IMG/VR virus record: IMGVR_UViG_3300045988_132576
Span: 62,908 to 126,907 of that record
From: a virus
DNA length: 64,000 bases
Reading direction: 5' to 3' (one strand)
The notes below the pieces were generated by a model, which was given only the letters and a program-made list of their open reading frames with translations, made no database searches and had not been told where the DNA came from. The position numbers and the translations under genes are program-made. Below, piece by piece: positions 1,431 through 21,272 of this stretch. Every line of letters starts with the position of its first letter. The stretch's first letter is position 1.

Positions 1431-1447
1431 GAAAGGAGAAAAGGATA

Positions 1448-2554: not shown

Positions 2555-2564
2555 TTTAATATAA

Positions 2565-2600
2565 ATTATTCCATGGGGAGAAGGGATTAAACTCCCTCTC
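2565..2600 (+). terminator. rho-independent terminator
   Basis: GC stem GGGGAGAAGGGA…CTCCCTCTCCCC followed by ATATTTTTGTTTT. Confidence 0.6.
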
Positions 2601-2640
2601 CCCATATTTTTGTTTTATGAGTAAAAGGAGAAATTGAATA

Positions 2641-3234: not shown

Positions 3235-3253
3235 TTTATAGGAGGGCGATTAA

Positions 3254-3676
3254 GTGGGAACATTATTCTCAGCTGTTTATAATCGCTTTCTAAACAAGGT
3301 TACTGATGACATGTATCTGGAGTTGACTCCTGAAGATACTTTAAGAGATTTATAGAATCTTATAATAGATGCTATTCCTGGATTTGAATTTCCGCGAAAA
3401 AATCTTTTAGATTATAATTTAGATGTTGCTACTATTAATGAATCTGATGCTATGCCGGATGATTTTATTGTAGGAACGGTATGGGGAGAACTTCCAGAAC
3501 CGGGTGAAGAACCTCAAGTTTTAGTTGATAGATCTAGTTTTAATTGTGATCTAACTGAAGAAGAAATTAATATTTTAGCTATTTTAATGATGTGCGGTTG
3601 GACGCAAAGGCAAGTCACTTCAATTGAGAATACTCGAATGAAATATAGTGGCTCTGATTTTAAATTTACTTCTTAG
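3254..3676 (+). CDS. head-tail connector / head completion protein candidate (GTG start, one in-frame TAG)
   Basis: RBS AGGAGGG 7 nt before GTG. It is in the same frame as track ORF 3452..3676 and joined to it across one TAG. Position between head and tail genes. Confidence 0.4.
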
Positions 3677-3782
3677 GCAAATCATCTATCAAAGCTGTTA
3701 AGTTTGTTAAGTGAATGCCAAAGACAATCTCACCATATGTAGCGTTTATATAAACGCAGACGTCTAAATGACAAAGGTGAGT

Positions 3783-4124
3783 ATGAATCTAATTGGGATG
3801 TGTTTAAAAGTCGATATGATTACTAAATATAATTTTGATATTCCAATAGAGAGTATAAAGGTAAATTGTTTGCGCTTAACCAATCAATTATGGAAATTAA
3901 TTCCAATGCGCGAAAATAATGAAGATTGGCATAAATAGCTAGAAACTGTTATAAATGAAATTGTGGGGTTTAGTGTGATTTTTAACGCTGAACCCCTTTA
4001 TTTATAGTTATTAAATAAACTTGAGGGATTGTAGAATCGAGATACTGATTTTAATTTTTATCGTAAGACTGTATTTGAAACGATCAGTCTTTTATAGGAG
4101 ATAAATTATGGCGTCAGGGTTTGA
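3783..4124 (+). CDS. hypothetical small protein (recoded, 4 in-frame TAG); uncertain
   Basis: 113-codon frame open under TAG=sense, weak SD AAGGTGAG. A strong GC hairpin lies inside it, so it may instead be non-coding. Confidence 0.25.
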
Positions 4125-5172
4125 TTATAGTAGTAAGCAACCTTTTAGATTATAGCAAGGTCGCTTAGGAATTTATGATAAACCACCCTTTGAAGGTAGC
4201 CCTGTTGAAGGCGTTAATTATATGGCGGTTCGGCTCGGTCAAATGGGCGGAAACCGCCAACAAGAGCGTATGATTTTATCTAAGCGCAGAAGCTTGGATA
4301 GAGCAGTATGGAATTCATATCAAGCCGCAGAAATTATTAAATAGGATGCGGAATATAAAAAACCTATTAGGTGTTTAATTAATCCCAATAAATTAAAATA
4401 GGATTATGATGACAAGATTTTGTCTGTTGGAAATGAGTATTAGTTTAAACCGGGAGATATCTTTGAATGGTGCGGAACTAATACCTATTGGATTTGTTAT
4501 CTTTAGGATTTAACTGAATTGGCTTATTTTAGAGGAGATATTAGAAAATGCTCTTATAAAATAAATTGGGTAGATAATGGAGAGAAAAAATCTACTTATG
4601 CAGCAATCCGCGGTCCGGTAGAAACGAAAATTAATTATATTTAGAAACATGAAATTAGTGTAGATAATCCTAATTATTCATTAAATATTTTAATGCCAAA
4701 AAATAAAGATACTTTAAGTTATTTTAGGCGTTATACTAAATTTTATTTAGATGGTTAGGATGAGGGAGACAATTTAATTTGTTGGCGTGTTGAAGCTGTA
4801 GATTCAATAAGTATGCCAGGTATTTTAGAAGTTAATGCGACTGAATATTATATTAATGAGTAGGAAGATAATTTAGATAATAAGACTGTTGGTTCTTTAA
4901 TTGCGGAACCAATTGATCCAAATCCTACGACAACTGATATTATAGGGGAAACATTTATTTTCCCAAAGAAAACTTATACTTATTATTTTGATGGTGAAGT
5001 TGTTCTAGAATGGAAAATAAAGAATAATAAAAAGTTGCCAGTTTCTTTAAAAGTTATTAAAGAAGCAAAAAAGCCAACAGTTGAAATAAGTTGGACTTCT
5101 GGATATAGTGGATAGTTCGATTTATGTTATGGAGATTATAAGAAAACGATTGTAGTTCAATCATTGTTTTAA
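4108..5172 (+). CDS. hypothetical structural protein (354 aa, about 12 in-frame TAG)
   Basis: RBS AGGAG 8 nt before ATG. 355 codons with no TAA/TGA but many TAG. Invisible in the standard-code track. Confidence 0.55.
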
Positions 5173-5187
5173 GGAGTAAAAGGTGTT

Positions 5188-5769
5188 ATGAAAATTAATG
5201 GTGTAAATTTACCTAAATCAAGTTTTCTTTCTGTTGAAAAAGATTTAGAAATTATTGTAAGACATCTCTGTAAAAATGAGAGATTAAAGCGATTATTGTA
5301 TTATACAACAAAAGATGCTATTGATAAGCCAGATCTAAATGATGAACAAATGATTCAATTATTTAATAAAAATATTAAATTAATTCCTAAGCTTTATGTT
5401 GATGGAAGTGTATTAAATTATTTAATTATTAATTTTGATAATTTTACACAAAGTGGAAATCCTGAGTTTAGAGACAATATTATTGAATTCGATATTATTT
5501 GTCATTTTGATCAATGGCATTTAAAAGATTACCAATTGCGCCCTTATCGTATTGCCGCAGAAATTGATAGCATGATAGATAAAACGCATTTAACCGGTAT
5601 TGGTAAGTTAGAATTTCTTGGAGCAAATCAAATTATTTTAACTGATGAATATGCGGGTTTGTGTCTTATGTATCAGGCAGTTCATGGTGAAGAAGATAAA
5701 AAATCTATGCCAAATCCTAATGACGAGGAAAGATTTATAGAAGATTTTAAAAAAAGAACTGAAGAGTAA
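5188..5769 (+). CDS. hypothetical neck/tail-completion protein (193 aa), TAG-free
   Basis: Track ORF. Leader GGAGTAAAAGGTG. Confidence 0.55.
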   Translation: MKINGVNLPKSSFLSVEKDLEIIVRHLCKNERLKRLLYYTTKDAIDKPDLNDEQMIQLFNKNIKLIPKLYVDGSVLNYLIINFDNFTQSGNPEFRDNIIEFDIICHFDQWHLKDYQLRPYRIAAEIDSMIDKTHLTGIGKLEFLGANQIILTDEYAGLCLMYQAVHGEEDKKSMPNPNDEERFIEDFKKRTEE

Positions 5770-6494
5770 TGGATATCAGACTTGGATTAATGACAGGTAT
5801 TGATTTACCAATACCTGAATTAGAAGTCACTATTCATTAGCCATCTATAAAAGAAATTTCTTTTATAGGTGAAAAAGATCTTTTCTTGGGGATTTAGTGT
5901 TTATGTATTGATAAAAACATAATAGAGAATTCGGGCGAAAGTCTTTTAAGAGAAACAAATAATTTTTAGATATTTATGACAATGATGAAAGAAAAAGAGA
6001 TGGCCGATAAAAAACAAGCATCTATGTAGGTTCTTACATTATTGTTTCCAAAGCAAAATGTTTTATTTACCCCTAGGTCAATTGTTTTACAAGGTGACCC
6101 ACAAATAATGATTGACGAAAGCAATTTTAATATATTATAGGAATATATTAAAGAAATATTTTGTTTTAAATCTAATGCTTCGCAAGAAATGGGATTTAAT
6201 CCTGGAAGTGCGGCCGCGAAAAAGATAGCCGATAAATTAATGCGAGGTAGACAACGTGTCGCTGAATTAAACGGCACGGCTAATGCTAGTATATTTAGTT
6301 AGTATCTTTCAATGCTTACTATAGGTCTTGATTCAATGTCTTTACAGGATTTAATGGATTTAACAATGTTCCAACTCTATGACCTTGTTGAAAGATATCA
6401 ACTTTATATTAATTGGGATATTGATATCCGGTCTAGATTAGCAGGCGCAAAGCCTGATAATAAGCCGGATAACTGGATGAAAAATATCCATTAA
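5769..6494 (+). CDS. hypothetical tail-region protein (241 aa, 7 in-frame TAG)
   Basis: ATG overlaps the TAA of the previous gene (TAATG). It is in frame with track ORF 6312..6494 and ends at TAA. Confidence 0.55.
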
Positions 6495-6518
6495 ATTTTT
6501 TAAGGAGGAAAAAAACCT

Positions 6519-7502
6519 ATGAAATTTGGTGTACGCGAAATTTGCGATGTCGTTTTAAAGGCAAAGGCTAATCAAAAGATTGGTAATAAGCAATTTTATA
6601 AGAATGAGCCAGTTATTTATTTCGACACTTTAAAGACTTCCAGTATGGAAGGCGCTGCTACCACCGTATACGCACAAGGTGGTCGTGGTAATACTAACTT
6701 AGTCGCATGGGAAGGCGAGCGTACTGTTACCTTCACAATGGAAGATGCTCTTATTTCTCCTGAAGGTTTCATGATTCTTTCCGGTGCTGGTCTTGTTGAG
6801 GCTTCTGCTGATAATAAGATTAAGCAACATATTACTCAAACTGTTGATAAGACTAAAGACATTGTCCCTGCTAACGCTGGAAAAAACATTAAGACTGATG
6901 GACTAATCGTTCCTGTTTCTTATGCCCCTTATCTTGATAATGAGCATAAAGATGACGATTATGTTTATGTTTTCTTTATGAAAGATGGCGAAATTATTTC
7001 TGAGCCTTATCTGGCGCATGAAGGAGTTACTACGGGAGAGACTGGTTTTAGTATTACCGTAAAAGGATTTGATCGTGCTAGTGGAGTGGCTTATACCACT
7101 AACGATTTAGAGAATGATTATGCTAAATGCGACTCCGTAATGGTTGATTATTATACTGAGCGTGAATCTGGCGCTAAGCAGATTGAAATTACTGCTGATA
7201 AGTTCGGTGGTAACTACTATCTTGAAGCTTCTACCTTATTCCGCAATCAAGACGGCGTAGATATGCCTGCTGAATTTATTATTCCTAACTGCAAGATTCA
7301 ATCCAACTTTAACTTTACAATGGCTTCTTCTGGTGATCCTTCCACTTTCACTTTTACTATGGACGCATTCCCTGATTATACTCGTTTCGATCATAGTAAG
7401 AAAGTTTTGGCTGCTATTCAGATTATTGAAGAAGACGAAACTGTTGACAACGATATTCGTAGAAAGACCGCTGCTAATAGCACCATTGCTATTGGAGGCT
7501 AA
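6519..7502 (+). CDS. major tail (tube) protein candidate (327 aa), TAG-free
   Basis: Strong RBS AAGGAGGAAAAAA. TAG-free. Lies upstream of the chaperone-like genes and the tape measure. Confidence 0.45.
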   Translation: MKFGVREICDVVLKAKANQKIGNKQFYKNEPVIYFDTLKTSSMEGAATTVYAQGGRGNTNLVAWEGERTVTFTMEDALISPEGFMILSGAGLVEASADNKIKQHITQTVDKTKDIVPANAGKNIKTDGLIVPVSYAPYLDNEHKDDDYVYVFFMKDGEIISEPYLAHEGVTTGETGFSITVKGFDRASGVAYTTNDLENDYAKCDSVMVDYYTERESGAKQIEITADKFGGNYYLEASTLFRNQDGVDMPAEFIIPNCKIQSNFNFTMASSGDPSTFTFTMDAFPDYTRFDHSKKVLAAIQIIEEDETVDNDIRRKTAANSTIAIGG

Positions 7503-7507
7503 TTAAT

Positions 7508-7690
7508 ATGGTTGTAAAAGGTCCAGTAAAATATACTCCACCAAAACAGCCTAAAAAAGAATCTACTAAAAAGCAGCCAAAAGTAGAAAAGGCTGTAAAG
7601 AAAGAGCTTATCGAACCTATTGAGGAAGTAATTCTTCAAGAGGAAGATGAGGTAAGTAAGATTTTATCTGAATTAGATAAAAAAGATTAA
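7508..7690 (+). CDS. small Lys-rich protein (60 aa)
   Basis: Track ORF 6 nt after the tail-protein stop. Followed by a terminator. Confidence 0.35.
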   Translation: MVVKGPVKYTPPKQPKKESTKKQPKVEKAVKKELIEPIEEVILQEEDEVSKILSELDKKD

Positions 7691-7695
7691 TTAAT

Positions 7696-7730
7696 GGGAG
7701 AGAATAAAAATATTCTCTCCCATTTTTTTG
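7696..7730 (+). terminator. rho-independent terminator
   Basis: GGGAGAGAATA aaaa TATTCTCTCCC followed by a run of seven T. Confidence 0.7.
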
Positions 7731-7754
7731 TTATGCGGAAAAGGAGGATTAAAT

Positions 7755-8780
7755 TTGGTAATTAAAAATAATTATAGCGATAATAGTCAAGAAAGTTAGA
7801 AAATTGCCGAAGATTTTATTTATTGGACTGAAGATATGGTAAAAGAGTAGTTATAGTAGGAACATTTTAAAGAATTATATGAAAAAATAAGAAAATCATC
7901 AGAAATATTAATTAATCATTTTACTATTTTTGATAATATTTAGAAAAAGTATAATAGTAAAATAAATAAATCAATGACTATGACTTTAAATCTATTAGAG
8001 TAGAAAAAAATATTAATCTATTAGGAATTTTTTAATTTATAGAATTTAATTAATGAGTTTTTAAATCAAGAAATAAAAATTACTGCTGTCTATGTCGATC
8101 CAATTACAGGCCAAAGAGAAATTAGATTAATGGATAATGATATAAAAAATATTCAAGCAGTTAAAAAAACGTCTGTATAGGGTTATAATTATGCTAAATT
8201 AGAATATGATATGAATTAGCATTATGAAAATTTAAAAAATGCTTTGCCGGATGATGATAATAAAGGATTATAGAATACAGCAATGCAAGTAGAATTAAGA
8301 TATAATAAATATAAAAAGAGAATATTATGGTATAAAGATTCGTGGAAAGGATATACAATGTCTACTCGTGGTCCTATTAATGAAGCATTTGTATCTTTTT
8401 ATATAAATAATATTAAATTTAATTCAGATCTTGAAACAAATATTGATTATTTTATGTTAGATCCTACTATGGGTGCGATTAATGCTGATAATATGAATGG
8501 ATTTTTAATTGGAGATGTATCTGGAGGGAAAATCCAATATGCAGTTAAGGGTGAAGGCGGATCTCCATAGAAATATACTACTATAATAAAATGGTTAAAA
8601 ATTTTAAGAGATAAATAGTTTTCACCTCAAAGTTTTGCTGATTTCATAAATCGTTTCACTATTGAAGAAAAAGAAAAAAGAATTAGTTAGATAAGAGAAT
8701 TAAGTCAAAAAAGTATTGATGGATTAGTCCGCTATCATGGCGAAAAATTAACTGAAGAATTATTATTTAATAAAAAATAA
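7755..8780 (+). CDS. hypothetical tail-assembly-region protein (about 341 aa, TTG start, about 20 in-frame TAG)
   Basis: RBS AAAGGAGGA. Track ORF 8283..8570 is an internal fragment in the same frame. TAA stop. Confidence 0.45.
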
Positions 8781-8788
8781 TTGAATTT

Positions 8789-8818
8789 TGACTAAATAAA
8801 AAATTTTTTGTATAATAT
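8789..8818 (+). promoter_or_regulatory. sigma-A-like promoter (TTGACT – 17 nt – TATAAT with upstream TG)
   Basis: The motif is read directly from the sequence upstream of gene 8844. Confidence 0.35.
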
Positions 8819-8843: not shown

Positions 8844-9377
8844 ATGGCTAAAATTTCATATAATAAATTAGGAATTACTAAGGATGAACTTAATAAAGTT
8901 CAAACTGTTGAATACAATGATTAGACTATTGAAGTAAAGCAATATCTTCCCATTGCGGAAAAGAGTGAATTGATTACTCGTGTATTGAATAACTCAGTGG
9001 ATGAAAATACTGGATATTATAATCTTTTAAAGTTAGATATGAATCTTGGTTTAGAGATTGTTTATGCTTATAGTAATATTTCATTTACTGAAAAACAAAA
9101 GGAAGATCCAATGAAGCTTTATGATATGCTTAATGCTTCTAAAGTGCTTAATCTTATTATTGGTCTTGTGCCAGATGGAGAATTTTATTATTTAAATAAA
9201 ACGACTCATGAAATGGCTAATAATATTGTGACATATCGCAATTCTGCTATGGGTATTATGGAAGCAATTTCCGCAGATTACAGTAATTTAGATTTGGATG
9301 CGACAGACATTCAAAAGAAGTTAAATGATCCAGATAATATGGCTTTATTGAAAGATGTGCTTACTAAATTGGGCTAA
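8844..9377 (+). CDS. tail assembly chaperone candidate (177 aa, one in-frame TAG)
   Basis: Leader AGAGTAAAAGGAGG. The track ORF 8970..9377 extends 5' across one TAG to the ATG at 8844. Sits immediately upstream of the tape measure. Confidence 0.45.
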
Positions 9378-9422
9378 TTAAATTAGTTAATAATATTATT
9401 TTTTGAAAAATAATAGAGTGAT

Positions 9423-9465
9423 GGGGATAAGAGTATAATTGCTCTTATCCCCGTTTTATTTTTAT
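9423..9465 (+). terminator. rho-independent terminator
   Basis: GGGGATAAGAG…CTCTTATCCCC followed by GTTTTATTTTT. Confidence 0.7.
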
Positions 9466-9499
9466 ATAAAGATAAAACTTGGAGAGAAAGGAGATTTCT

Positions 9500-12400
9500 A
9501 TGGCTAAACAATTAAATAGTTATTAGGTTAATTTACAATTTACTACTGATGCTAAATCAGCTTAGAATCAAATTAGAGATTTGCAATTTTAGTTAGATAA
9601 TTTATTGAAGTCTTCAATAAATGAAGTTCAAACTCAAAAATTACCTATAACAAAAGAATTGACGGAAGCACAAATAGCCGCTTCTAAGTTATAGACTATT
9701 TTATCTCAAACGGTAAATATAAAAACTGGGAAAATGGATTTGACTAAGTTCTCTTAGTCTTTAAGATAGAGTAATTTAAACTTAGAAAAATTATAGAGTA
9801 ATTTAATGGAATTAGGACCAGAAGGCCAAAAGGCCTTTATGACTTTATCTCAATCTATTATTGAGGCTGACGTTCCATTAAAAAGAACAAGTGCTTTAGT
9901 ATCTGAAATGTGGACTGTTATGAAGAATACAGTTCGTTGGCAGATTTCTTCAAGTGCAATTCATAGTTTTATGGGAGCAGTTTAGACTGCTTATGGATAC
10001 GCTCAAGATTTAAATAAATCTTTAAATAATATCCGTATTGTTACAGGTTAGAGCTCTGATTAGATGGCTAAATTTGCTAAATAGGCAAATATCGCGGCCA
10101 GAACTTTAAGCACAACTACTACTGAATATACTGACGCTGCTTTAATTTATTATCAATAGGGTTTAAATGATGAATAGGTAAAAGAACGCACTGATATTAC
10201 TATTAAAATGGCAAATGTAGCTCGTGAAAGTGCTGAAATAGTTTCAGATCAGATGACTGCTGTTTGGAATAACTTTTATGATGGAAGTCAATCATTAGAG
10301 CATTACGCTGATGCGATGGTGCGCTTAGGTGTAGATACCGCATCTAGCTCTGACGAAATTGCTGGCGGTCTTGAAAAATTCGCCGCTGTCGCTGATACTA
10401 TTGGTTTAAGCTTTGATAACGCAGCTGCCGCGTTAGCTACTATTACTGCTACTACTCGTCAAAGTGAAGATGTCGTAGGTACAGCTTTAAAAACTATCTT
10501 TGCTCGTATTCAAGGCTTGAAGCTTGGCGAAACTTTAGAAGATGGTACTACATTAAATCAATACTCATAGGCTCTTGAAAAAGTTGGAATTAATATCAAA
10601 GATTCTAATGGTGAATTAAAAGATATGGATAACATCATCGAAGAAATGGGTAATAAATGGCAGAGTATTAATAAAGATTAGCAAGTGGCTTTAGCACAAT
10701 AGGTTGCGGGTGTCCGTCAATATACTCAATTAATTGCTTTGATGGACCATTTTGATTATTATAAAGAAAATCTTGCTAGAGCATAGAGTGCTGATGGATC
10801 TCTTCAAAAACAAGCTGATATTTATGCGGAATCTTGGGAAGCTGCTAGTAACAGAGTAAAAGCAGCTGCATAGAGCGTCTATGCTGAGCTGATTAATGAT
10901 AAATTTTTTATTACATTAAACGATTTATTAGCCGACGTTTTAGATAAAATAAATGATTTAATAGAAAGTATGGGTGGCTTACCAGGAGTAATTGCTGCTG
11001 TTGGAATTATATTTACCAAAGTTTTTAATAAGCAAATCGCTTAGGGATTAAGTAATGTTGGATTTGGTATATAGTCTTTGGTAGGATACACTAAACGCTC
11101 TGCTGAGTAGATGAAAGAAGAAGCTTATACTAGAGCATCTAATATGGCTTTTGATAATGTTACTGAAGCAGATGCTGTTTCTGGTGAACAATTAAAATAT
11201 ACTTTAGAATTAAAAAAAGAAATTTAGAAAATTTCTGGTGATATAACTTCACAAGAAAGAGAATAGTTAGAAAATTTAATTAAAATTAATTAGGCTTATG
11301 GAGATTAGGTTATTAAGGCGGCTTAGGCTAAAGACTAGGTAACTGAAGAGTTATAGAGCATTAATACTGATTTAAGATCAATTATAAGAAATGATTCTAA
11401 AAATGGTAGTATAGAAAATAATTTAAAAAGTTATTCACAAATAAGACAAAGTTTAAATGGTGTCGTAGATACAGGATACCAAGGAGCGGCTGCTTTAAAT
11501 ACCATTAATGAAAAAATTGGGATTTTAAAAAATAGATCTACCGAGCTTCATGCTGAGTTTGAAATATTAGCTAAAGCATTAGATTAGGTACATTTAACAG
11601 AATCCGCTAAAGCAGTGAGAAATTTATCAGCTCGTTTTGAAAATGGAGAATTAGATGTCAAAGCTTTTAGAGAAGAATTCGAAAAGTTAGAAAATGTAAA
11701 TGCGGGGGATTTATTATCTGATACTGCGATTGAAATAAGTGCTCGAGTACAATTTTTAAAAGAATAGTTTGGAATAACTGGTAAAGCTGCTAAAGAATTT
11801 GACGATTTGGCTGAAGCTTTAGGAAATACTCTATTAAAATTAAAAGAAAAAATTGAAATTGTAAAAAAAGGTCACGAAGGATTACGTAATTAGTTTGTCG
11901 AGATAAAAAGTGCTATTAGCGGATATCAAAGTGCTTTAAATGATTTTGGTAAATCAATTACTTAGAGTTTTACAGCCCTTTCTTCTTTATCAATGGGGTT
12001 AATGTCTTTAAAAGGAGCTATTGATACCTTACAAGATGAAGATATGAGTATTGGAGATAAACTATTATCTATTACTATGTCTTTAAGTATGGCTTTAGTT
12101 TCTTTAACTTCTGCTGTAAATCAATTTAAACAAGCAGAATTAAAGAAAACTGCTGCTCAATTAAAATCAACAGCATAGACATTACTTGAAACTATTGCTA
12201 TAAATGCTAATACTGCAGCGGGAAAAGGCAAAATAGTTATTACTAAAGAGATGACTTTAGCAGAGATTTAGGCTGCTCTTGCGTCAACAAAATTTGCTAA
12301 TAGTTTATTAATTTAGACGGCAGCTTTATTAGCAGCAAAAATGGGTATAAGTTTAGTTGCCGCAACTGCGCTTATTGCGGCTGGAGCTTTTATTGCTTTA

Positions 12401-15400
12401 GCGGGAGCTGTAACTTTAATTGCTATTGGATTTAAAAAAATGCAGGAAAGCACTCCAGAAGCAAAATTAAAAAAGTTAGAAGAGAATGCAAAAGCGAGTT
12501 CTGAAGCTTTTGATAAATTAAATAATAATATTGATGAAACTAACTCAGCATTAGAAAAATTATAGTCTTATAAAGATACAATTGGTGATTTAGTTCCTGG
12601 CACAATTGAATGGTATAAAGCCATTTCTGATGTTAATGCTGAAATTACTAAATTATTAGAGAAATATCCTGAGTTATCTAAATACGTCAGCATTGATGAA
12701 AATGGAGCTATGGATATTAGTGATGAAGGGCGAAAATATTTAGGAGAATCTCAAAAAGAAAATCTTAAAATTTTTACTGCGACAAAAATAAGAGACTAGA
12801 TTGCGGTAAATGATTAGCAAATTACTAATAGTTATAATCAATTTAAAGATAGTGATTAGGGTATTTAGAATATTATTGATTTAGTGTCAAGTAAAAGTAT
12901 TCTTACTAAAGCAGGTATAAGTGAAATGATTTAGAATGCTGCTGATAATCCTAACTTTGGTAATATGTTATATACTAAAGAAGGAGCAAGAGAGTTATTA
13001 ACTGCTATAGTAGATGCCACTGGAACTAGTATTGGAGCTATTAGTGATGAGACTGCTGAAGCTTTTTATCAATTTATTTTAGAAAATAAAGATTAGATAA
13101 TTAAAAATTCTTCTTTAAAAGAATAGGGAAAATTATTATATAATAATTTATTGGAAGCGGAATTTTCAGCTCTTGGAAGTGATAGGACTGCTGATGAAAT
13201 AAATGACTTATTTAATGGAGAAGATATTTATAGTCAAACTGTTGCAGATTAGAAATCTAAATTATAGAAAGATTTTAAATGGAATAAACATATAAATTAT
13301 AGTGGTAATGAGCAAGAAATTCAAGATTATATTTAGTTACTTAAATAGCAAGGATATGAAGATGTATCTTATGTTGCTTAGCGTAATGGTAATATGATTT
13401 TGAAAGTCGATGATGAAGAATTAAAAGTTAGTGCAGATCAATTTTATAGTTAGTTAGCAGAAGCTTATTCTTCTCCTGAAGTAGCTGAAAAATTTACTAC
13501 AGCTTTATAGAATACTTTGCAGAAATCTTTAAACGGTATAGATTTAAGTAATTTAGATTTAAATCAATTAAATTATTTAGATAGTTTTTAGAGAAGCTTA
13601 CAAGAATCTTTTGGTGATACAGAATTAGGTACTAAGTATTTTAATAAAATCGTTAAAGCCTATGGTACTTCTGAAGAAGATTTATAGAATTTTAGTGAAA
13701 GTATTAAATATATAGACAAACAAAGCGAAGCTTATCAAAGATTAGTATAGCAATTAGCTAATGGATAGGTAACCATTGATGAATTTAAAGATGGTCTTAA
13801 AGAGTTAAATGCTATCGGAGAATTAAATAGTATGTCTGATTTCTTTACTAATGCCGGTAAAGAAATGGGACTAAGTGATGATGAAGTTTAGTCTATGAAA
13901 GATTATGCTTCTTATATTCTTGAAGTATCTAAAAATTCATCAGAATTTGATGATAGTGTTTCTTAGAATGCTAACGCAGCTGCCCGTTTAGCAGTTTAGA
14001 TTACTCGAATGAATAAAGGAGTAGAAACTTTATCAGGTAATTTTGAAACTTGGAATGATATTTTAAAGAATAGTACTAAGGGCAGTCAAGAATATTTTAA
14101 TGCTTTAACTAAAACCCGTTCTGCTTTATCTGATGTCCTTGATGTTGAAGAAGAGTTTATTTCAGATGATTTTGTTACTAGCCATTTAGATGAAATTGCT
14201 AAAGCAGCTAAAGGCGATGAAAAAGCTATTGATTCTTTAAGAAATTCAATGGATGAAGAGATTATTGCTAGAATCACTTTAGGACAAGATGAAGAATTTA
14301 CTGCTTAGATAAATTCTTTAGACTAGAAAGTTAAAGATGCTTGCTCTAAACTTGATCCGACCATTGAGATTGGAGCAAAAGTTGATGATGCTGATTTCTT
14401 AGAAGCAGCTAATAACTTAGTTAAGGAATCTTAGATGACTGCAGATGAAGCTAATGCTTATTTTGCAGGAATTGGCTATGAACCAGTCTATAACGCAGAA
14501 GATATTGATACCTCTGCGGAAATGCCAAATGCTGAAACTATTACTCGCGTAGTAGATATTAAGGCTGACAATCCTAAAACTTTTGATCTTGGATTCTTAG
14601 GTAAACATACTATTAATTTACCTTCAATTTCAACAATAACAGAAACAAAAGCTGAGGAACCTACAAAATCTCCTGGCGGTATGCGTTTAGTATCTTTTAG
14701 CGGCGGAAAAACTCCTCCTAAAATTTAGGGATTTCATCGAAAAGCTACCGGCAGTTCGAACAATCATTCTTCTACTAATTCTGGAGGGTCAGGAGGAGGA
14801 AGCAAATCAAGTGGTGGTTCTTCTTCTTCTAAGCCTTCTAAAATTGATAAATCTAAAAAATCTGATGTCGTTGATAGATATAAAGAAATAACTGATAGCA
14901 TCAATGATACTACTCGTGCTTTAGATAAAGCTAATAAATCTGCCGATAGGCTTTGGGGCAAAGCTCATCTTGATGCAATGGCTAAAAGTAATAAATTAAC
15001 TCTTAAGGAAGTTGATTTATTAAAACAAAAGCAAAAAGAAGCTTAGGCTTATTTAAAGACAGATAAAGCTACTTTATAGCAAGCTGCGAAAAAAGCTGGA
15101 ATTACTTTCACATTTGATGAAGATGGTGATATTTCTAATTATACTGATTAGATGACTAAACTTTATAATTAGCTTGTAGCCGCTTAGGATAAAGCAAATT
15201 CTTTTTCTACAAAAGACGCTCAAGATGCTTATAAAGAAGCAACTTTAGATCCGATTCAAAAGAAAATTGATGAGTTAAAAGACGCCATTAGTCAATATGA
15301 AGATACAAGAGATTTAGTCGAAGAATTAACTGATAATATTCAAGATAAAATAAATGAGTGGCAAGATAAAAATTATCAAATGCTTACTTATGAAGTTGAA

Positions 15401-17758
15401 GTAAAAGTCCAATTAGATGAAAATGATACTAAGAAATTAGAATATTATTTTGATAAATTAAGTGATAATATTTATAAAGCTGCTGAAGCTCTTGGATATT
15501 TACAAGGTCAATTTGATCCAGTAATTAGTCAGTTAGGAACTTACGAAAATTTCTATGGTCAGTTAAATAATGCTTATTCTAATGGAGAAATTTCTCAAGA
15601 AAATTATATTGAAGGCTTACAAGATGTATATGATAATACATTAGATAATTTAAATGCTTTATAGGATTTAGATAAAGAAATGCTTGAATATTATGGTAAT
15701 ACTATAGATTTAGCAAATGATGAATTATCTAAATATACAGATCATATGGAGCATTTGACTAGTGTATTGGATCATTATCGTTCTATTATTACTTTGTTAG
15801 GTAAAGATAAAGATTATGATAAAGTTTTATCAGTTTTAAATGGAACTGCTTAGACTAAGAAAAATAATTTTGATGCTTCTAAACAATGGTATGAAAGTTT
15901 GAAACGTGAACGTGATGCAGCGGCCGCGGCTTTAGCCAGTTCAACTGATGAGGCTGAGCGTGAAGTGCTTCAAAAGAATTATGATGCTATATTAGCCGCG
16001 TTCGATGAAGCGGAAGAGGATATGCTTTCTAAAGCGGAAGAATATGGTGAAGCATTAAAAGAAATTCTTACTACAAAGATGGAACAAGCTGCGGATGAAA
16101 TGAATAAGCAATTGAGCACTACTAAAGTGAGTATTAATGGTAATAACTTTAATATTTCTGGTTGGGATGCTTTAAATGATGCTTTGGATAGAATGTCTTC
16201 TTATCAAGATGAATATTTAACAAAGACTAATTAGATTTATGAAATGAATAAACTACTTAATAATGTTAATTAGGCTATTGATAAGACAAATAATCAAGCA
16301 GCTAAAAATAGATACCAGCAATTTACTAAAGAAATTGAGTAGTTAAGAGATAAAGATAAATTAAGTCAATTAGAATTAGAAATTGCTTAGGCTAAATATA
16401 AAGTGCTTGAAGCACAAATTGCATTAGAGGAAGCTCAAAACGCAAAGTCTACAGTTAGACTGCAACGTGATAATGAGGGTAATTTTGGTTATGTGTATAC
16501 CGCAGACCAAGAGAAAGTAAATGACGCGCAATAGGCTTTGGCAGACGCGGAAAATGACTTATATAATATTCGCCTTGATGCGACAAATAAATATGGTCAA
16601 CAAAAACTTCAATATGAGAAAGAGTTGGCTGAAAAGCTTGCGGAACTTGATTAGAAAGCCGCGGAAGATGCCGTTTACCGCGAGACTACATATCAGCAAG
16701 AACGCGCATTAGTAATTCAACAATATACTGATTTAATTACTACTGCTGGAAATCTTTATGCGAAAGCGCAAGAAGAAGACAGTAGAGTAGTTCAAGATGC
16801 TTGGGTAAATTCTTTTGATATTATCAAAGATAACAGTAATAGTTGGAAAGACACTATTACTGAAAATACTAATATTATCAATGATACATTTAAAGAATGG
16901 CAAGATAGTATGGATGAAATTAGTAAAATTGTTGGGGATGATTTAAAAGACACTCAATAGAAAGTTAAAGATGTTACTGATGAAAGTAATAAACTTTATC
17001 AAGAAGTATCTAATAGAGTTATTCCTGCTCTTGAAAACGAGTTAAGTTCCGTTCGTAGTGCTACTGAAGCTTGGGCACAACATCGTCAGCAATTACTTGA
17101 TACTATTAGAGCTTATGAAGAGCTTTTGAACGCTATTCAAGCAACATTGCGCGCTTAGAGCGGATTTGGTAGTGGAAGTAGTAATTCTTTAACAAGAGTT
17201 GATTGGTCTGAAAAAATGGGTCAAGTTGAATATGGTTCTGACAAATATAATGAATATTATTAGAATCGTGAAGACGTTATTAGGGGAGGATATGACGTTG
17301 AAGCTGCTACTACCGCCCGTGTTGATGCTTTTTATCGTAAAGGATTAGCATTGCCGATTAGTTATAATGGAAAAACTTATAGTCATTTTACTGATATTCC
17401 TGATAATGTTTGGAAACAATTAGTTGGATTTAGAAGTGGTGGTTATACTGGCACTTGGAATGATGATGGAAAATTAGCGTTCTTACATTAGAAAGAATTA
17501 GTTCTTAATGCTGATGACACGGAAAATATGTTAGCTTCTATTCAATTAGTTAGATAGATCGCAAAACAATTAGACTTCAATAGTCAACAAATCTCTACTC
17601 TTTCTTCTTCTGGATTTACTGTTAATTCTCAAGATGGAACATTAGAGCAGAATGTTAGAATTGAAGCTAGTTTCCCGAACGCTACTGATAGATACGAAAT
17701 TCAAGAAGCATTTAATACATTAGTTAATGTAGCTTCTTAGTATGCCAATAGAAAATAA
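9500..17758 (+). CDS. tail tape measure protein, 2752 aa, many tens of in-frame TAG
   Basis: Seven track ORFs (10208, 11993, 12341, 14009, 14435, 15380, 15899) all lie in frame 2. The gaps between them contain only TAG, never TAA or TGA. The product is coiled-coil rich with a Gly/Ser linker and a typical C-terminus (…GGYTGTWNDDGKLAFLH…). Confidence 0.8.
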
Positions 17759-17762: not shown

Positions 17763-17800
17763 AAGGGTGAAGTCTTATAGGCTTCACCCTTTTTCTTTTT
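17763..17800 (+). terminator. rho-independent terminator
   Basis: AAGGGTGAAG…CTTCACCCTT followed by TTTTCTTTTT. Confidence 0.7.
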
Positions 17801-17873
17801 GGGTAATTATATTGAATAAAACTAATTAATTTTTTAGAAAATTATAGAGTAATGAGTAAAAGGAGGGATTATT

Positions 17874-20800
17874 TTGGCTGATAAGGCACTAAATATTCAA
17901 GAAAGTTTATGTCAAGCAATGAGTATTATTGCTAATTCAAGTGTTGATAAAGTTAAATTTGATAGTACCATTGAATGTACCATTATTGATGCAACTGATA
18001 AACTTATTGGTAAGTATAAGGTTAAAAATGAATCTTATGCGGAATTTTATGCTTATTCCCAAATAACCACTTATAATAAAGGCGATAAAGTCTATGTATA
18101 GATCCCAAAAGGAGATTATAATAGCACTAAATTTATTGTCGGTAAAAAGACAGATAAAAATGAAGATAAGCCATATAATTTTGTCAATCCTTTTAATACT
18201 TTTATTGATTTAACTGGTAATTTCTTTATTGCCAAAGATAATAATAAAGAAGTTTGGAGTATCTTAGCTAATGGCAATGAAGAGGAAATTGAGATTACCC
18301 CAAATGGCGGAATTACTTTTACTGATGAGCAATAGGGATTTACGCGGTTAGGGCTGCGTGCCGATTTCCGCGCCTGGCTTGAAACGCTCGGCGTAGTAAG
18401 TGGTAATTATGGATTAAAATTAAATATATATGGTATTAAAGATGATACTGCGGATAATATTAAAAAAATAGAAAATAGTATTAAAAATAATGGAGAAATC
18501 CCTTTAATTGCATCTATTGATTTAGATACTAATGATATGTATGGCAATCCTTATAATTTTGAAGGATACTATTCTCAAGAAATTGTTATTGATACTAGCG
18601 CAGTAGCTAAAATATATAATATAAAAATATTTTTATATCAAAAAGGTAATTTTAAAGATAGTAATAATAATTTAATTAGTTATGCCAATGATTTTAATAT
18701 GTCAATTCCGCCTAATAATATCTTTGTAAAAGATATATATATGGGATTAGGTATTTCCGCGGACGAAATTGAAAATGAATATGTAAGATTATATTCATTA
18801 GATGGAAGTACTTACGTAATTGATGATAAAGGTTAGATTGATTCTAAAATTATTAGATTAAAATGGGTTCATTTTGATGAAGATGGCAATAGAACTCAAA
18901 TAACCGAGCATAAAAAAGATGATACTTTTGAAGTCCGTTGGTATAGGTATGAATTTGGAGCGCCGTCCGCAGACGAATATTCTGGTGTCTATTGGACTGC
19001 GATTGAAGATAATAAAAATAATTTTTATTATTAGCTAAAACCGCGCTCTAATAAAAATCAAGAATAGGTTAAAGTAATTATTTTATATAATGGAAAAGTT
19101 TATAGAAGTAATATAATTACTTTTAATAATGAAAAACAAGTTCCTAATGATGCGACTATTGATAGTTTAAATGCTTTGTCTATTCACTGTGGAGATTAGA
19201 CTAACGGTAATTATTTAATTTATAATTAGGCTAATTATTTGATGAATAGATCAGATGGAAAGATTAGTCGTAAATTAACTTTACATTTTGATTCTAAGAC
19301 TTATGCTATTAATAATGGTATAATTGGTAAAAATTAGGATGGAGAAAGTAAATTAGTTGAAGCTTAGAGAGTAATTTGGCAAATTCCTATTAAAAATACT
19401 ATGCTTAATTTTGGTGTTAAAGATGATGAAACTGATGCTACTTATAAAGAAATTATTATTGATTTAACTAATGAAAACGTCAATGTTTCTCCTGGAGAAT
19501 TTTCTTTAAATTATACTATTAATACTTTTTATAGTAGTAATAAATCTAATAATACCGTAATTGCCAAGGTGGAAAAAGATGGTATTGTTTATACCGCCAT
19601 TAAAGATTTCACTTTTGGATAGGCAGGAACTAATGGTACTGACTGTACTTTAGTAATTGATATGATAGCTCACGAGAATTTAAATAATAAAGTATTTACT
19701 GCTATAAAAAGTGGTGTAAGAGATAATTATACTTTTAGAGCTTAGCTATATGATAATGAAGGTAAGGAAATTACTGATTTTAAAAAATGTAATTGGACTT
19801 GGAGCTTTATGTCTGGATCAACGGTTAATAATGTTGATTTATAGAATACTAATAATTAGAATTGCGTGTTAAGAGTTAATACCACAAATTCTATAATGAA
19901 TAATTTAATTATTTTATAGGTAAAGTTATCTGGGTGGGGAGATTATGATTTAACTGCTTATTATCCAGTTCCTATTACGATTTTAGATAATGCTTATATA
20001 AATGGTCCAACAGAGGTAATTTATTTAAGTAATGGTGAACCTACATTTTCTAAAGAGCCTTATAAATTATTTATAGATGGCGAAGTAGATGAAACTGCGG
20101 CTTGGAGTATTTATCCCACTGGATCTACCGATAAATTTATTGGATAGATTAAATATAATGATAAGAAAAAAGAATATAGATTAAGTCCTATGAACTTTTA
20201 TGTTGATGGAGTAAGCACTTATGGAGTTCAAGGAAAATAGGGAAGCAAGATAGTTTGGAGTCAACCTATTTTAGTCATTTAGAATAAATATCCATCAGCA
20301 ATGGTAAATAAGTGGGACGGATAGTTAAATATAGATAGTGATAATAATTTTATTGGTGTTGCTCAGATCGCGGCTGGTAAAAAAGAAAATAATAATACAT
20401 TTACTGGTGTCTTAATGGGATCTTTTGGTGATAATAAATCAGATAGTAGTCTTAGTAAAAATACTGGTGTTTATGGATATTACCAAGGTAAATAGGTTTA
20501 TGCTTTAAAAGATGATGGTACTGCGACATTTGGTAAATCTGGAAATGGTTAGATTGAAATTAAAGGCGATTCTGGGAAAATAAAATCCGCTGGTTATGAT
20601 AGCGGTAATGGTCTTTTAATTGATTTAAAAGAAAGTAAAATAGATGGTAAAAGTAATAATTATAGTGCTTTTTTATTAAATAAATCTAGTCCATATTTAA
20701 CAATTAAAGACCCTGTTAGTAATACTACTTTAATGAATGTAGGAGATAATAGTTATTATTTAAAGTCTAAAAATTATACTACAGATGGAACTACAGGAAT

Positions 20801-21272
20801 GTATATAAATTTAAATGATGGTTCTATTACTGCCAATACTGGTACATTTAAAGGCGACATTATAATTAATTATACCGGTAGCACGGGTGATGAATGGACT
20901 TATGGCGATCGAAGTTTAAGTTATATTTTAAATTAGATTGGAAAAGCCGCCAAAGAAGCTAGTGATTTGGCAACGGCTTCTATCACATGGACTCAAGATA
21001 TAGCTAATGCTTAGGCAAGGGCGGACGACGCTATTAGCCAATTAGCATATGTAAGCCAAATCCTTAATTATAAATAGGGGTCAGGAAATGTTTATTTACA
21101 TTATTGGAATAATGAAGAAGGCGCTAAATTTATTGTTTAGGGAAATGGAACAGTTGGTATGATGGGCGGTTCAGGATATTATTTAAATGTAACTAATAAC
21201 TCTATTTATTTAGACGGCCCTGTTGTAATAAATGGTTCATTAACTCTTAATGGACGAGACATAACAGGTTAA
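17874..21272 (+). CDS. large tail protein (distal-tail / tail-associated, 1132 aa, TTG start, about 30 TAG)
   Basis: Track ORFs 17874, 18537, 19401 and 20733 are all in frame 0 and joined only by TAG. Leader GAGTAAAAGGAGGG. Confidence 0.6.

What the first reader, a model, noticed from the sequence alone, without database searches (positions are those of the whole stretch)
9500..17758. Exceptionally long tape measure protein (2752 aa) implies a very long tail
One uninterrupted frame (only TAG inside) of 8.26 kb lies between the chaperone-like gene and the distal tail genes. Tape-measure length scales with tail length, so this predicts a tail several hundred nm long. The gene is flanked by intrinsic terminators on both sides.
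Basis: partly seen in the sequence, partly recalled or inferred. Interest (0 to 1): 0.5.

Follow-up and report, generated by a model that had tools for sequence, protein, structure and literature searches.

The report
Long TAG-recoded phage tape measure gene
This is a genuine single 2,752-residue tail tape measure gene of a human-gut phage that reads TAG as glutamine, predicting a tail of roughly 400 nm, but this size is normal (even short) for its already described phage lineage.

Summary
Window 9500-17758 (+) is one ATG-to-TAA frame of 2,752 codons with 80 in-frame TAG and no TAA or TGA (chance about 1e-79).

It is a tape measure protein (TMP). TIGR01760 scores 118 bits against a cutoff of 29, and PF10145 gives E 2e-27. 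It lies between SPbeta-like tube/assembly genes and tail genes, is about 80% helical by proxy models, and shares a C-terminal motif with annotated TMPs.

TAG encodes Gln. Gln is 31% of residues aligned at TAG sites, against a 6.8% background.

It is one gene:
- 68 IMG/VR loci (56 distinct orthologs) keep a single frame of 2,572-3,759 aa, and six of the distinct ones contain no TAG.
- A standard-code Enterococcus phage has a collinear 2,673-aa TMP.
- No internal ATG has a strong Shine-Dalgarno motif.

Both flanking terminator hairpins are real and conserved (42/47 and 44/47 relatives, with different stem sequences).

"Exceptionally long" is overstated. 86% of orthologs are longer. The published phAss-1 TMPs are 3,149-3,209 aa (110 TAG in phAss-1), Tsamsa's is 3,123 aa and P23-45's is 5,002 aa.

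The predicted tail is about 385-440 nm, non-contractile; no EM data exist. No suppressor tRNA was found.

Verdict: a new member of a known kind, of modest interest.

The parts
9500..17758 (+). Tape measure protein gene: 2,752 codons plus a TAA stop, with 80 in-frame TAG read as Gln (code 15)
   Evidence: PF10145, TIGR01760, 11 PHROG TMP families; collinear single-ORF orthologs
9488..9493 (+). Shine-Dalgarno AAGGAG, 6 nt upstream of the ATG at 9500
   Evidence: sequence read directly
9971..11008 (+). TP901-type TMP core domain (aa 158-503)
   Evidence: TIGR01760 at 118.5 bits against a cutoff of 28.8. PF10145 over aa 199-404, E 2e-27. About 85 invariant columns in 40 sequences.
10958..11026 (+). 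Hydrophobic TM-like helix 1 (aa 487-509)
   Evidence: Kyte-Doolittle 19-mer score at or above 1.75
12062..12427 (+). Hydrophobic TM-like helices 2-4 (aa 855-873 and 936-976)
   Evidence: Kyte-Doolittle 19-mer scores of 1.78-2.5
14357..14884 (+). Pro/Gly/Ser-rich non-helical hinge (aa 1620-1795, with a G/S linker at 1738-1795). It coincides with a recombination junction.
   Evidence: 10 of the protein's 25 Pro lie here. The 94% nucleotide identity block shared with L005 starts at window 14853. Homology to the Enterococcus TMP resumes at aa 1778.
16448..16507 (+). Conserved motif STVRLQRDNEGNFGYVYTAD (aa 2317-2336), predicted to be a beta-hairpin within the helical C-module
   Evidence: Invariant columns. 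Strands at residues 258-274 of the P0121 model. Also conserved in Enterococcus phage VRE9_4.
17414..17755 (+). Conserved TMP C-terminal module (aa 2639-2752; motif GFRSGGYTGTW...GKLAFLHQKELVLN)
   Evidence: 38% identity to the C-terminus of the annotated Enterococcus TMP. Alignments to SPbeta-like YomI reach aa 2688. Consensus.
9420..9465 (+). Intrinsic-terminator-like hairpin plus T-tract, ending 34 nt before the TMP start codon
   Evidence: dG -25.4, z -7.1. A counterpart is present upstream of the TMP in 42 of 47 relatives, with 31 distinct sequences.
17763..17801 (+). Intrinsic-terminator-like hairpin plus T-tract, starting 5 nt after the TMP stop
   Evidence: dG -19.5, z -4.9. A counterpart is present in 44 of 47 relatives, with 33 distinct sequences.
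8788..8816 (+). Sigma-70-like promoter (TTGACT-17-TATAAT, 11/12) in front of the 177-aa gene; a candidate source of TMP transcripts by terminator read-through
   Evidence: L003 has TTGACA-17-TATAAT with an extended -10 TG (12/12) at the same position. These are consensus matches only; function is inferred.
8844..9377 (+). 177-aa gene immediately upstream of the TMP (phrog_30570; its L005 ortholog has a weak YomO hit). Putative tail assembly chaperone by position only.
   Evidence: (47% identity to the L003 ortholog)
7836..8780 (+). 314-aa gene with 13 TAG, of unknown function, lying between the tube gene and the TMP
   Evidence: no family hit; 26% identity to L003
6519..7502 (+). Tail tube protein (YomU_Tube-like), TAG-free
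   Evidence: phrog_2729, E 4e-55. The identical-genotype locus L007 carries PF27173 YomU_Tube. 63% identity to L003.
7693..7734 (+). Terminator-like hairpin after the tube gene and a small 60-aa gene
   Evidence: dG -20.5, z -6.4. A counterpart lies at L003 8088-8121.
17919..21272 (+). 1,117-aa gene downstream of the TMP (24 TAG); a distal tail or baseplate protein by position
   Evidence: 27% identity to the L003 ortholog over about 1,150 aligned positions. In the same position as the 'tail protein' genes of VRE9_4. No family hit.

Best explanation
Window 9500-17758 encodes one 2,752-residue (about 305 kDa) tail tape measure protein. The phage is an SPbeta-like, phAss-like, siphovirus-type human-gut phage that decodes TAG as glutamine in most of its late genes.

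The protein has a modular layout:
- a TP901-type core domain (aa 158-503);
- hydrophobic, membrane-inserting-type helices (aa 487-509, 855-873, 936-976);
- a variable helical centre;
- a Pro/Gly/Ser hinge (aa 1620-1795);
- a conserved coiled-coil-like C-module ending in the TMP C-terminal motif.

Inferred from established TMP biology, not shown here:
- A few copies thread the lumen of the polymerising YomU-like tube as extended helices and stop polymerisation at the protein's length.
- Calibration uses SPbeta (320 nm / about 2,298 aa = 0.139 nm per aa), Tsamsa (440 nm / 3,123 aa = 0.141) and P23-45 (800 nm / 5,002 aa = 0.16). This gives a non-contractile tail of about 385-440 nm, most likely about 385-410 nm.

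The gene is bracketed by conserved intrinsic-terminator-like hairpins. There is no room for a sigma-70 promoter between the upstream hairpin and the RBS. TMP mRNA therefore most likely arises by read-through, either from the conserved promoter at 8788-8816 or from a phage late polymerase. That would keep TMP dosage far below that of the tube protein (inferred).

Full-length synthesis requires 80 consecutive TAG decodings. TAG must therefore be almost completely reassigned at the time of tail assembly: at 95% efficiency per codon only about 2% of chains would finish, and at 99% about 45% (inference).
For: Frame and code:
- 80 TAG and no TAA or TGA in the frame; P about 1e-79.
- At 56 TAG positions covered by 120 homologs, Gln is 31% of aligned residues against a 6.8% background. 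Position 220 is Gln in 118 of 118. E and K come next.
- Every candidate gene tabulated in the window ends in TAA or TGA.

Identity:
- PF10145, E 2e-27. TIGR01760, 118.5 bits against a cutoff of 28.8, covering the full profile.
- 11 PHROG TMP families, two with profiles of about 2,650 positions.
- tblastn hits to annotated TMPs of Enterococcus phages and to SPbeta-like YomI.

Single gene:
- Collinear BLASTP to the 2,673-aa standard-code TMP of VRE9_4 at the N-terminus, centre and C-terminus.
- L003 has a 3,236-codon frame with a single TAG.
- Code-aware gene calls of 2,752, 2,766, 2,741 and 2,740 aa in four samples.
- 68 IMG/VR loci (56 distinct orthologs) are single frames with the N-domain and the C-motif; six of the distinct orthologs have no TAG.
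- No internal ATG with a strong SD motif and no tandem repeats.

Context:
- 13 of 13 genes syntenic with L003, and the same PHROG order as VRE9_4.
- YonB, YomW, YomV and YomU_Tube Pfam hits on the identical-genotype locus L007.

Structure:
- 0.9% Pro and no Cys.
- AF2 models of close proxies are 78-81% helix.

Terminators.

Calibration: PMC8270828; PMC3903500; PMC10770324.
Against: - No virion image or proteomic evidence exists for this phage or any close relative, so tail length and morphotype are inferred.
- No suppressor tRNA-CUA was found in the 64-kb window or in more than 60 flanking loci of relatives. How TAG is decoded here is not shown.
- The structure models are of proxies (P0121 is 96% identical to the C-terminus; P0003 is 46% identical to the N-terminus) and have moderate or low confidence (pLDDT 56 and 70).
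- No canonical chaperone -1 frameshift pair lies upstream.
- Terminator and promoter function rests on consensus scans, folding energies and positional conservation, not on transcript data.
- The nm-per-residue factor varies between 0.139 and 0.16 among calibrators.
Confidence: 0.9

Rival explanations
1. Two adjacent genes, or a recent fusion: an N-terminal TMP of about 1,600-1,750 aa and a separate C-terminal protein of about 1,000 aa. The boundary would be at the Pro/Gly/Ser hinge, and the second part would be translated independently.
For: - A distinct non-helical hinge lies at aa 1620-1795, and a recombination junction lies at aa 1785.
- Databases hold separate 'proteins' for the two halves: P0020 of 1,651 aa followed by a 1,542-aa gene in L003, and P0121-P0127 matching only the C-terminal half.
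- Tsamsa's TMP runs as 280 and 100 kDa bands (PMC3903500).
Against: - The split in L003 is an artefact. Both parts are in one frame, separated only by a single TAG plus 42 open codons, with no SD-like start.
- The splits in L005 come from a 26-nt deletion relative to the window.
- Six distinct standard-code orthologs and the Enterococcus phage TMP are uninterrupted ORFs spanning both halves.
- No in-frame internal ATG with a strong SD motif exists in the window.
- Post-translational cleavage at the hinge remains possible, but that is still one gene.
Confidence: 0.04
2. The frame is a single TMP, but part of its length does not measure the tail. Under this reading the variable centre or the C-module is an ejected effector or enzymatic cargo, as with the N-terminal RNA polymerase of the P23-45 TMP or the lytic domains of YomI. 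The real tail would then be considerably shorter than 385-440 nm.
For: - P23-45 shows that giant TMPs can carry fused enzymes (PMC10770324).
- SPbeta-like YomI is annotated as a transglycosylase.
- The centre (aa about 1050-1780) is unalignable between close relatives and has no family assignment.
- A conserved beta-hairpin motif of unknown role lies at aa 2317-2336.
Against: - Pfam, NCBIfam, PHROGs and PDB sequence searches find no enzymatic domain anywhere in the 2,752 aa.
- Composition and the proxy models are about 80% helix with very little strand.
- The calibrators SPbeta, Tsamsa and P23-45 give 0.139-0.16 nm per residue counted over the whole protein, even though SPbeta-like YomI and the P23-45 TMP carry extra domains.
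Confidence: 0.1
3. Not a functional gene under a reassigned code. Instead it would be a decayed TMP pseudogene in a standard-code genome, or TAG would be read by low-level read-through or as an amino acid other than Gln.
For: No suppressor tRNA was found in the window or in flanking loci.
Against: - Only TAG interrupts the frame. TAA and TGA are absent over 2,752 codons (P about 1e-79).
- The same pattern holds across most late genes in the window, and no tabulated gene ends in TAG.
- Homology runs the full length of the protein.
- Dozens of relatives keep the frame open with 32-111 TAG.
- Gln is 4.5-fold enriched at TAG sites, and one site is invariant Gln.
- TAG has replaced CAG in the TAG-bearing genes.
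- Published relatives carry tRNA-Sup-CTA predicted to insert Gln (PMC10607447).
Confidence: 0.02

Closest known systems
phAss-1 / proposed Phassvirus group (Babkin et al. 2023, PMC10607447; GenBank OQ749652, 'Caudoviricetes code 15 clade')
   Same: - Human-gut, siphovirus-type phages with TAG read as Gln in virion genes.
- The TMP is the best tblastn hit (28% identity over aa 134-2351).
- Their TMP is also a giant recoded gene: 3,149-3,209 aa, with 110 TAG in phAss-1.
- That paper's wider group includes Enterococcus phage EF1, which is also a hit here.
   Different: - Only distantly related, with no DNA-level match.
- The window's TMP is about 400 aa shorter.
- Close relatives of the window phage have contigs clustering at about 193-201 kb, against 133-138 kb for the phAss-1 group.
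- phAss-1 carries three tRNA-Sup-CTA genes, while none was found in the parts of this genome examined.
Enterococcus phages VRE9_1-4, EF1, EF5 and H1 (about 134-142 kb; TMP 2,673 aa in VRE9_4, phrog_34405)
   Same: - Same order of PHROG families around the TMP: 4088, 31155, 6123, 4051, 2729, 30570, TMP, tail proteins, then a second giant ORF.
- The TMP is collinear at the N-domain, C-module and C-terminal motif, and almost the same length.
   Different: - Standard genetic code, with no TAG in the TMP.
- 26-38% identity, and only in the conserved blocks.
- The order of the small genes between tube and TMP differs.
- Different host genus; the host of the window phage is unknown.
Bacillus phage SPbeta and relatives (YomI TMP, 2,298 aa in Goe12; 320-nm flexible tail)
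   Same: - The virion module is built from YonB, YomW, YomV and YomU homologs, and the replication module from YorF/YorH-type genes.
- YomI aligns at both ends of the window TMP (aa 123-2688).
- SPbeta's measured 320-nm non-contractile tail gives the best related calibration (PMC8270828).
   Different: - YomI is annotated as a lytic transglycosylase. No such domain is detected in the window TMP.
- SPbeta uses the standard code.
- SPbeta is a temperate Bacillus phage of about 134 kb.
Other giant TMPs: Bacillus phage Tsamsa (3,123 aa, 440-nm tail) and Thermus phage P23-45 (5,002 aa, 800-nm tail)
   Same: Very long TMPs that scale with very long non-contractile tails. They serve as calibration points (PMC3903500, PMC10770324).
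   Different: - Unrelated or only weakly related in sequence. PBC2, listed here as a Tsamsa relative from recall, is a weak hit.
- P23-45 carries an N-terminal RNA polymerase, which is absent here.
- Both use the standard code.

Membership tests
Phage tail tape measure protein, TP901 family (TIGR01760 / PF10145) | Core-domain match above the curated cutoff | tested here: met
   TIGR01760 at 118.5 bits against a cutoff of 28.8, covering profile positions 5-342 of 349. PF10145 at 96.7 bits against a cutoff of 33.2.
Phage tail tape measure protein, TP901 family (TIGR01760 / PF10145) | Gene located between the tail tube/assembly genes and the distal tail/baseplate genes | tested here: met
   The YomU-like tube gene is at 6519-7502, followed by two small genes, the TMP, and then large tail genes.
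Phage tail tape measure protein, TP901 family (TIGR01760 / PF10145) | Overwhelmingly alpha-helical, extended, Pro-poor protein with hydrophobic segments | tested here: met
   0.9% Pro, no Cys, and hydrophobic helices at 487-509, 855-873 and 936-976. AF2 models of proxies are 78-81% helix. The models are proxies with pLDDT 56-70.
Phage tail tape measure protein, TP901 family (TIGR01760 / PF10145) | Protein length sets tail length | not testable with these tools
   This needs EM and deletion or insertion mutants. Only calibration from other phages is available (PMC8270828, PMC3903500, PMC10770324).
Phage tail tape measure protein, TP901 family (TIGR01760 / PF10145) | Preceded by a chaperone pair made by a -1 programmed frameshift (G/GT type) | tested here: not met
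   No overlapping alternative-frame ORF of 80 aa or more lies between 7836 and 9500 under code 15. The 177-aa gene is followed by a terminator. This feature is common but not universal among siphoviruses.
Code-15 (TAG to Gln) recoded phages | In-frame TAG in essential late genes, with genes ending only in TAA or TGA | tested here: met
   TAG occurs in 33 of the 47 candidate genes tabulated in the window, and none ends in TAG. The total length of ORFs of 150 aa or more doubles when TAG is recoded.
Code-15 (TAG to Gln) recoded phages | TAG positions correspond to Gln in homologs | tested here: met
   Gln is 31% at TAG sites against a 6.8% background. Position aa 220 is Gln in 118 of 118 homologs.
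Code-15 (TAG to Gln) recoded phages | Phage-encoded suppressor tRNA (anticodon CUA) | tested here: inconclusive
   No tRNA was found in the 64-kb window or in more than 60 loci of relatives covering the structural and part of the replication modules. More than half of the probable ~195-kb genome was not examined. Some published recoded phages lack such tRNAs (PMC10607447).
SPbeta-like virion module | Homologs of YonB, YomW, YomV and YomU in conserved order | tested here: met
   Precomputed Pfam PF27364, PF27256, PF27211 and PF27173 on L007, which matches the window's gene lengths and is 100% identical over the 3 kb of TMP compared. The local Pfam copy lacks these models.
SPbeta-like virion module | YomI-type TMP with a lytic transglycosylase or peptidase domain | tested here: not met
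   Only PF10145 and TIGR01760 were detected across the 2,752 aa.

The most novel reading that the evidence does not exclude
The TMP gene may be a deliberately insulated, recoding-gated checkpoint.
- It is bracketed in about 90% of relatives by strong terminator hairpins whose sequences differ.
- It carries up to 111 TAG codons, while the abundant capsid and tube genes carry none.
- Full-length TMP, and hence tail assembly, would then be possible only after TAG reassignment is nearly complete. TMP dosage would be set by terminator read-through.

In addition, near-identical strains fall into discrete TMP length classes (about 2,740, 2,770, 2,830 and 2,970 aa). These appear to be generated by exchange of the central module at the G/S hinge. 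This would mean tail length (steps of about 4-30 nm) is a rapidly switched, selected trait in a widespread ~195-kb gut phage.
Probability: 0.25. Interest if true: 0.5.

Novelty: new member of a known kind. Interest (0 to 1): 0.3.

Why it matters
This is mainly a matter of correct annotation. Standard-code pipelines shatter this gene, or split orthologs into two or three "proteins", so public databases hold many fragment entries for what is a single TMP.

The lineage is well represented in public assemblies:
- The exact capsid protein is listed in 90 blocks of the public assembly collection.
- 121 IMG/VR relatives were found, with contigs up to about 200 kb.

The lineage also offers a natural series of orthologous TMPs with 0 to 111 TAG codons. 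That series could be used to study how stop-codon reassignment spreads through a genome and how efficient it must be.

The predicted ~400 nm tail would place this phage among the long-tailed siphoviruses, but it would not break records. Nothing here changes current understanding of tape measure proteins.

Tried and rejected
- The search for homologous proteins with the full 2,752-aa query failed internally. I reran it with aa 1-1000 and with the C-terminal 986 aa.
I modelled the proxies P0121 and P0003 instead.
- Foldseek against the PDB with the N-terminal model gave only generic coiled-coil or helical hits, none with E at or below 1e-3. The PDB sequence search found nothing. I did not run a fold search on the C-terminal model (pLDDT 56).
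- The local Pfam copy found nothing for 10 neighbouring proteins, because it lacks the PF27xxx SPbeta families. Orthology came from precomputed hits on identical or related loci instead.
- Megablast of window 1-25000 against annotated phages gave no match.
- I looked for EM data on the syntenic Enterococcus phages and found none. One paper lists EF1 and EF5 as 'Myoviridae' in a table, with no EM shown for them, and I did not use that label.
- I looked for a suppressor tRNA in the window, in L003, L005, L007-L011, and in 60 IMG/VR loci. None was found. I did not walk through the rest of the ~195-kb genome.
- No tandem repeats in the gene and no internal SD plus ATG.
- The SMC hits from NCBIfam are far below their cutoffs, and I dismissed them as coiled-coil similarity.
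- I first read the ~1,650-aa database homologs as evidence for two genes. I rejected this after finding they end at a single in-frame TAG.

Full report
**1. Observation**

Window 9500-17758 on the + strand begins with ATG and ends with TAA at 17756. It contains 2,752 sense codons. The only stop-type codons inside are 80 TAG. Under table 11 the region breaks into ORFs of at most 120 aa. With the window's base composition (A 0.36, T 0.34, G 0.17, C 0.13), the chance of 2,752 codons without TAA or TGA is about 1e-79.

Recoding TAG doubles the total length of ORFs of 150 aa or more in the window (10,412 to 20,504 aa). It yields a coherent gene map in which every candidate gene tabulated ends in TAA or TGA. 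AAGGAG lies at 9488-9493, 6 nt before the ATG. The N-terminus MAKQLN matches the consensus of 39 homologs.

**2. What TAG encodes**

I masked the TAG codons and aligned the protein to 120 database homologs. At the 56 TAG positions covered, Gln makes up 31% of aligned residues, against a background of 6.8%. Glu and Lys follow, which are the usual substitutes for Gln. Position 220, in the YYQQG motif, is Gln in 118 of 118 homologs.

The gene has 99 CAA, 11 CAG and 80 TAG. TAG therefore supplies 42% of its Gln codons and has largely taken the place of CAG. This matches the published TAG-to-Gln assignment in the related phAss-1 group (PMC10607447).

No suppressor tRNA was found in the window or in more than 60 loci from relatives. 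Those loci cover only the structural module and part of the replication module of a genome that is probably about 195 kb.

**3. Identity**

- Pfam PF10145 (PhageMin_Tail) matches aa 199-404 at E 2e-27.
- NCBIfam TIGR01760 (tape_meas_TP901, an equivalog domain) matches aa 158-503 over its whole length, at 118.5 bits against a cutoff of 28.8.
- Eleven PHROG families, all annotated as tail length tape measure protein, match the N-terminal 500-650 residues. Two of those profiles are about 2,650 positions long.
- tblastn against annotated phages finds Phage Phass-1, a set of ~134-142 kb Enterococcus phages whose hit is annotated as the TMP, and SPbeta-like YomI.

Composition fits a tape measure protein. 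It has 0.9% Pro and no Cys. Hydrophobic helices lie at aa 487-509, 855-873 and 936-976. A Pro/Gly/Ser hinge at aa 1620-1795 holds 10 of the 25 prolines.

- P0003 (46% identical, covering the N-terminal 1,000 aa) is 81% helix, with pLDDT 70 overall and 85-95 in the core domain.
- P0121 (96% identical to the C-terminal region) is 78% helix, with pLDDT 56. It has a small beta-hairpin at the conserved motif VRLQRD.EGNFGYVYTAD.

No enzymatic domain was detected anywhere in the protein.

**4. One gene or two**

Several homologs on long contigs are only about 1,600 aa and are followed by a second gene of 1,200-1,500 aa. The window's residues 1-1054 match the first gene and residues 1467-2752 match the second.

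In L003, however, the two "genes" are in the same frame. They are separated only by one TAG and 42 open codons, with no SD-like start. That gives one 3,236-codon frame with a single TAG. In L005 the breaks are frame shifts, and the one I examined is a 26-nt deletion relative to the window inside a ~94% identical stretch.

Positive evidence for one gene:
- The standard-code Enterococcus phage VRE9_4 has one annotated 2,673-aa TMP CDS. It is collinear with the window protein at aa 112-519, 1778-2395 and 2639-2752.
- Four independent assemblies of the same or nearly the same phage carry code-aware gene calls of 2,752, 2,766, 2,741 and 2,740 aa. L007 is 100% identical to the window over the 3 kb compared.
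- In 68 IMG/VR loci (56 distinct orthologs), the frame containing the conserved C-terminus runs back to a TP901 core domain at about residues 145-505. Lengths are 2,572-3,759 aa, and six of the distinct orthologs have no TAG at all.
- There is no in-frame ATG with a strong SD motif and no tandem repeat inside the gene.

The two-gene alternative is rejected. Proteolytic processing at the hinge remains possible; Tsamsa's TMP runs as 280 and 100 kDa bands (PMC3903500).

**5. Context**

The window is strictly syntenic with L003: 13 of 13 genes are in order at 26-88% identity, and the TMP is among the most divergent at 40% over its N-terminal 1,070 residues. It shares its order of PHROG families with VRE9_4.

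The identical-genotype locus L007 carries the Pfam families YonG_N, YonD_N, YonB, YomW, YomV_2nd and YomU_Tube. The replication side carries YorF, YorH, DnaB, RecJ, PIF1, Pol III alpha and NrdD.

This is therefore an SPbeta-like virion module. There is a tube protein and no sheath homolog was detected, so a siphovirus morphotype is inferred. The wider clade (phAss-1, gut metagenome genomes, Enterococcus phage EF1) has already been described (PMC10607447).

**6. How long is "exceptionally long"?**

Within the lineage the median ortholog is 2,955 aa, and 86% of distinct orthologs are longer than 2,752 aa. Published TMPs exceed it:
- the phAss-1 group at 3,149-3,209 aa (PMC10607447); I counted 3,150 codons with 110 TAG in phAss-1;
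- Tsamsa at 3,123 aa (PMC3903500);
- P23-45 at 5,002 aa (PMC10770324).

The gene is long compared with typical TMPs but ordinary for its clade.

**7. Tail length**

Calibration points:
- SPbeta: 320 nm (PMC8270828) with a YomI of 2,298 aa in Goe12, giving 0.139 nm per aa.
- Tsamsa: 440 nm / 3,123 aa, giving 0.141.
- P23-45: 800 nm / 5,002 aa, giving 0.16.
- The textbook alpha-helical rise is 0.15 (my own knowledge).

Applied to 2,752 aa, these give 383-440 nm. The related calibrators favour about 385-410 nm. This is inference, because no EM exists for this phage or its close relatives.

**8. Terminators and expression**

None of 200 shuffles folded as well. A third hairpin follows the tube gene at 7693-7724.

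They are conserved in position but not in sequence. L003 has all three. Among 47 IMG/VR relatives, 42 have a hairpin plus T-run 62-102 nt upstream of the TMP start, and 44 have one within about 20 nt after the stop. These represent 31 and 33 distinct sequences respectively.

Only 34 nt separate the upstream T-tract from the start codon, so a sigma-70 promoter does not fit there. A consensus-like promoter precedes the 177-aa gene in both the window (8788-8816, 11/12) and L003 (12/12 with an extended -10 TG).

The most economical reading is that the TMP is transcribed by read-through of an attenuating terminator, which lowers its dosage relative to the tube protein. Read-through by a phage late polymerase such as SPbeta YonO is an alternative that I could not test. 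All of this is inferred.

**9. Modularity**

At the DNA level, the window compares with the close relative L005 as follows:
- 77% identical over the N-terminal ~600 codons;
- not alignable over the centre;
- 94% identical from window 14853 (aa 1785) through the downstream tail gene.

The junction falls in the G/S-rich hinge, and homology to the Enterococcus TMP also resumes there, at aa 1778. Close relatives (C-terminus at least 88% identical) fall into length classes of 2,737-2,750, 2,767-2,770, 2,828 and 2,968-2,974 aa. This suggests that exchange of the central module changes tail length in steps.

**10. Verdict**

The feature is real and the core interpretation is right: one TMP gene, table 15, and a long tail. 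Its length is typical of an already published clade, and a longer, more heavily recoded TMP is in the literature.

The points that go beyond the finding are these:
- the conserved bracketing of the TMP by terminators;
- the 0-111 TAG series among orthologs;
- the contrast between TAG-free abundant virion genes and TAG-rich low-copy ones;
- the abundance and near-jumbo size of this gut phage lineage.

I rate it a new member of a known kind, with interest 0.3.

Noticed in passing
window 513-7502 versus 3311-47557 (per-gene table): The genes fall into two classes of Gln codon usage. The presumably most abundant virion genes have no TAG and keep CAG: 513-1430, the YonB-like capsid gene 1448-2554 (8 CAG, 3 CAA), 2641-3234, the YomW-like gene 5188-5769 and the tube gene 6519-7502. 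The same is true of the Pol III alpha gene at 54619-58632. TAG-bearing genes have almost no CAG (for example the TMP has 80 TAG and 11 CAG, and 17919-21272 has 24 TAG and 1 CAG). It looks as if TAG has replaced CAG except in highly expressed or early genes.
   Followed up: partly
window 31739-39487 (+): A second giant ORF of 2,582 aa with 26 TAG, ending in TGA. It is not helical-looking and contains Cys. It matches only PHROG families of unknown function (phrog_14959, phrog_24896). A giant ORF of at least 2,572 aa lies at the corresponding position in Enterococcus phage VRE9_4 (phrog_33923). It is probably a large tail fibre or baseplate protein.
   Followed up: partly
L014-L093 (IMG/VR), L010, L011: The lineage is common and large. 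The exact capsid protein is listed in 90 blocks of the public assembly collection, and IMG/VR holds 121 relatives. Many contigs cluster at about 193-201 kb, which suggests a near-jumbo siphovirus-type genome, larger than SPbeta or phAss-1 (about 134-138 kb). I did not check completeness or circularity.
   Followed up: no
L003 14954 (ENA ERZ28658842 scaffold_16, 134 kb): A relative whose structural genes contain no TAG, apart from a single in-frame TAG in the middle of its 3,236-codon TMP. L118 has 2 TAG, and six distinct orthologs have none. Orthologous TMPs thus span 0 to 111 TAG, a natural series for studying how recoding spreads.
   Followed up: partly
L005 about 9870 versus window 15520-15545: A close relative carries a 26-nt deletion inside the TMP, and a second frame break near L005 6349-6368. 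Either this is a defective variant or the assembly is wrong. I did not establish which.
   Followed up: partly
window 14853 (aa 1785) and L094-L117: The TMP is mosaic. The recombination junction with L005 falls in the G/S hinge. Near-identical strains fall into discrete TMP length classes (about 2,740, 2,770, 2,830 and 2,970 aa), which implies tail-length polymorphism of up to about 30 nm within a species-level group.
   Followed up: partly
window 7508-7690 (+): A small ORF of about 60 aa lies between the tube gene and the terminator at 7693-7724. It is called as a gene in four related assemblies (L007-L010, 60 aa). My 80-aa ORF filter missed it. Its function is unknown.
   Followed up: no
window 29275-30873: A gap of about 1.6 kb with no ORF of 80 aa or more under code 15, between the tail gene 27001-29274 and the gene at 30874-31620. 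I did not examine it.
   Followed up: no
window 1-4000: GC content is higher (0.36-0.38) over the capsid genes than in the rest of the window (0.27-0.33). This coincides with the TAG-free, CAG-using genes.
   Followed up: no
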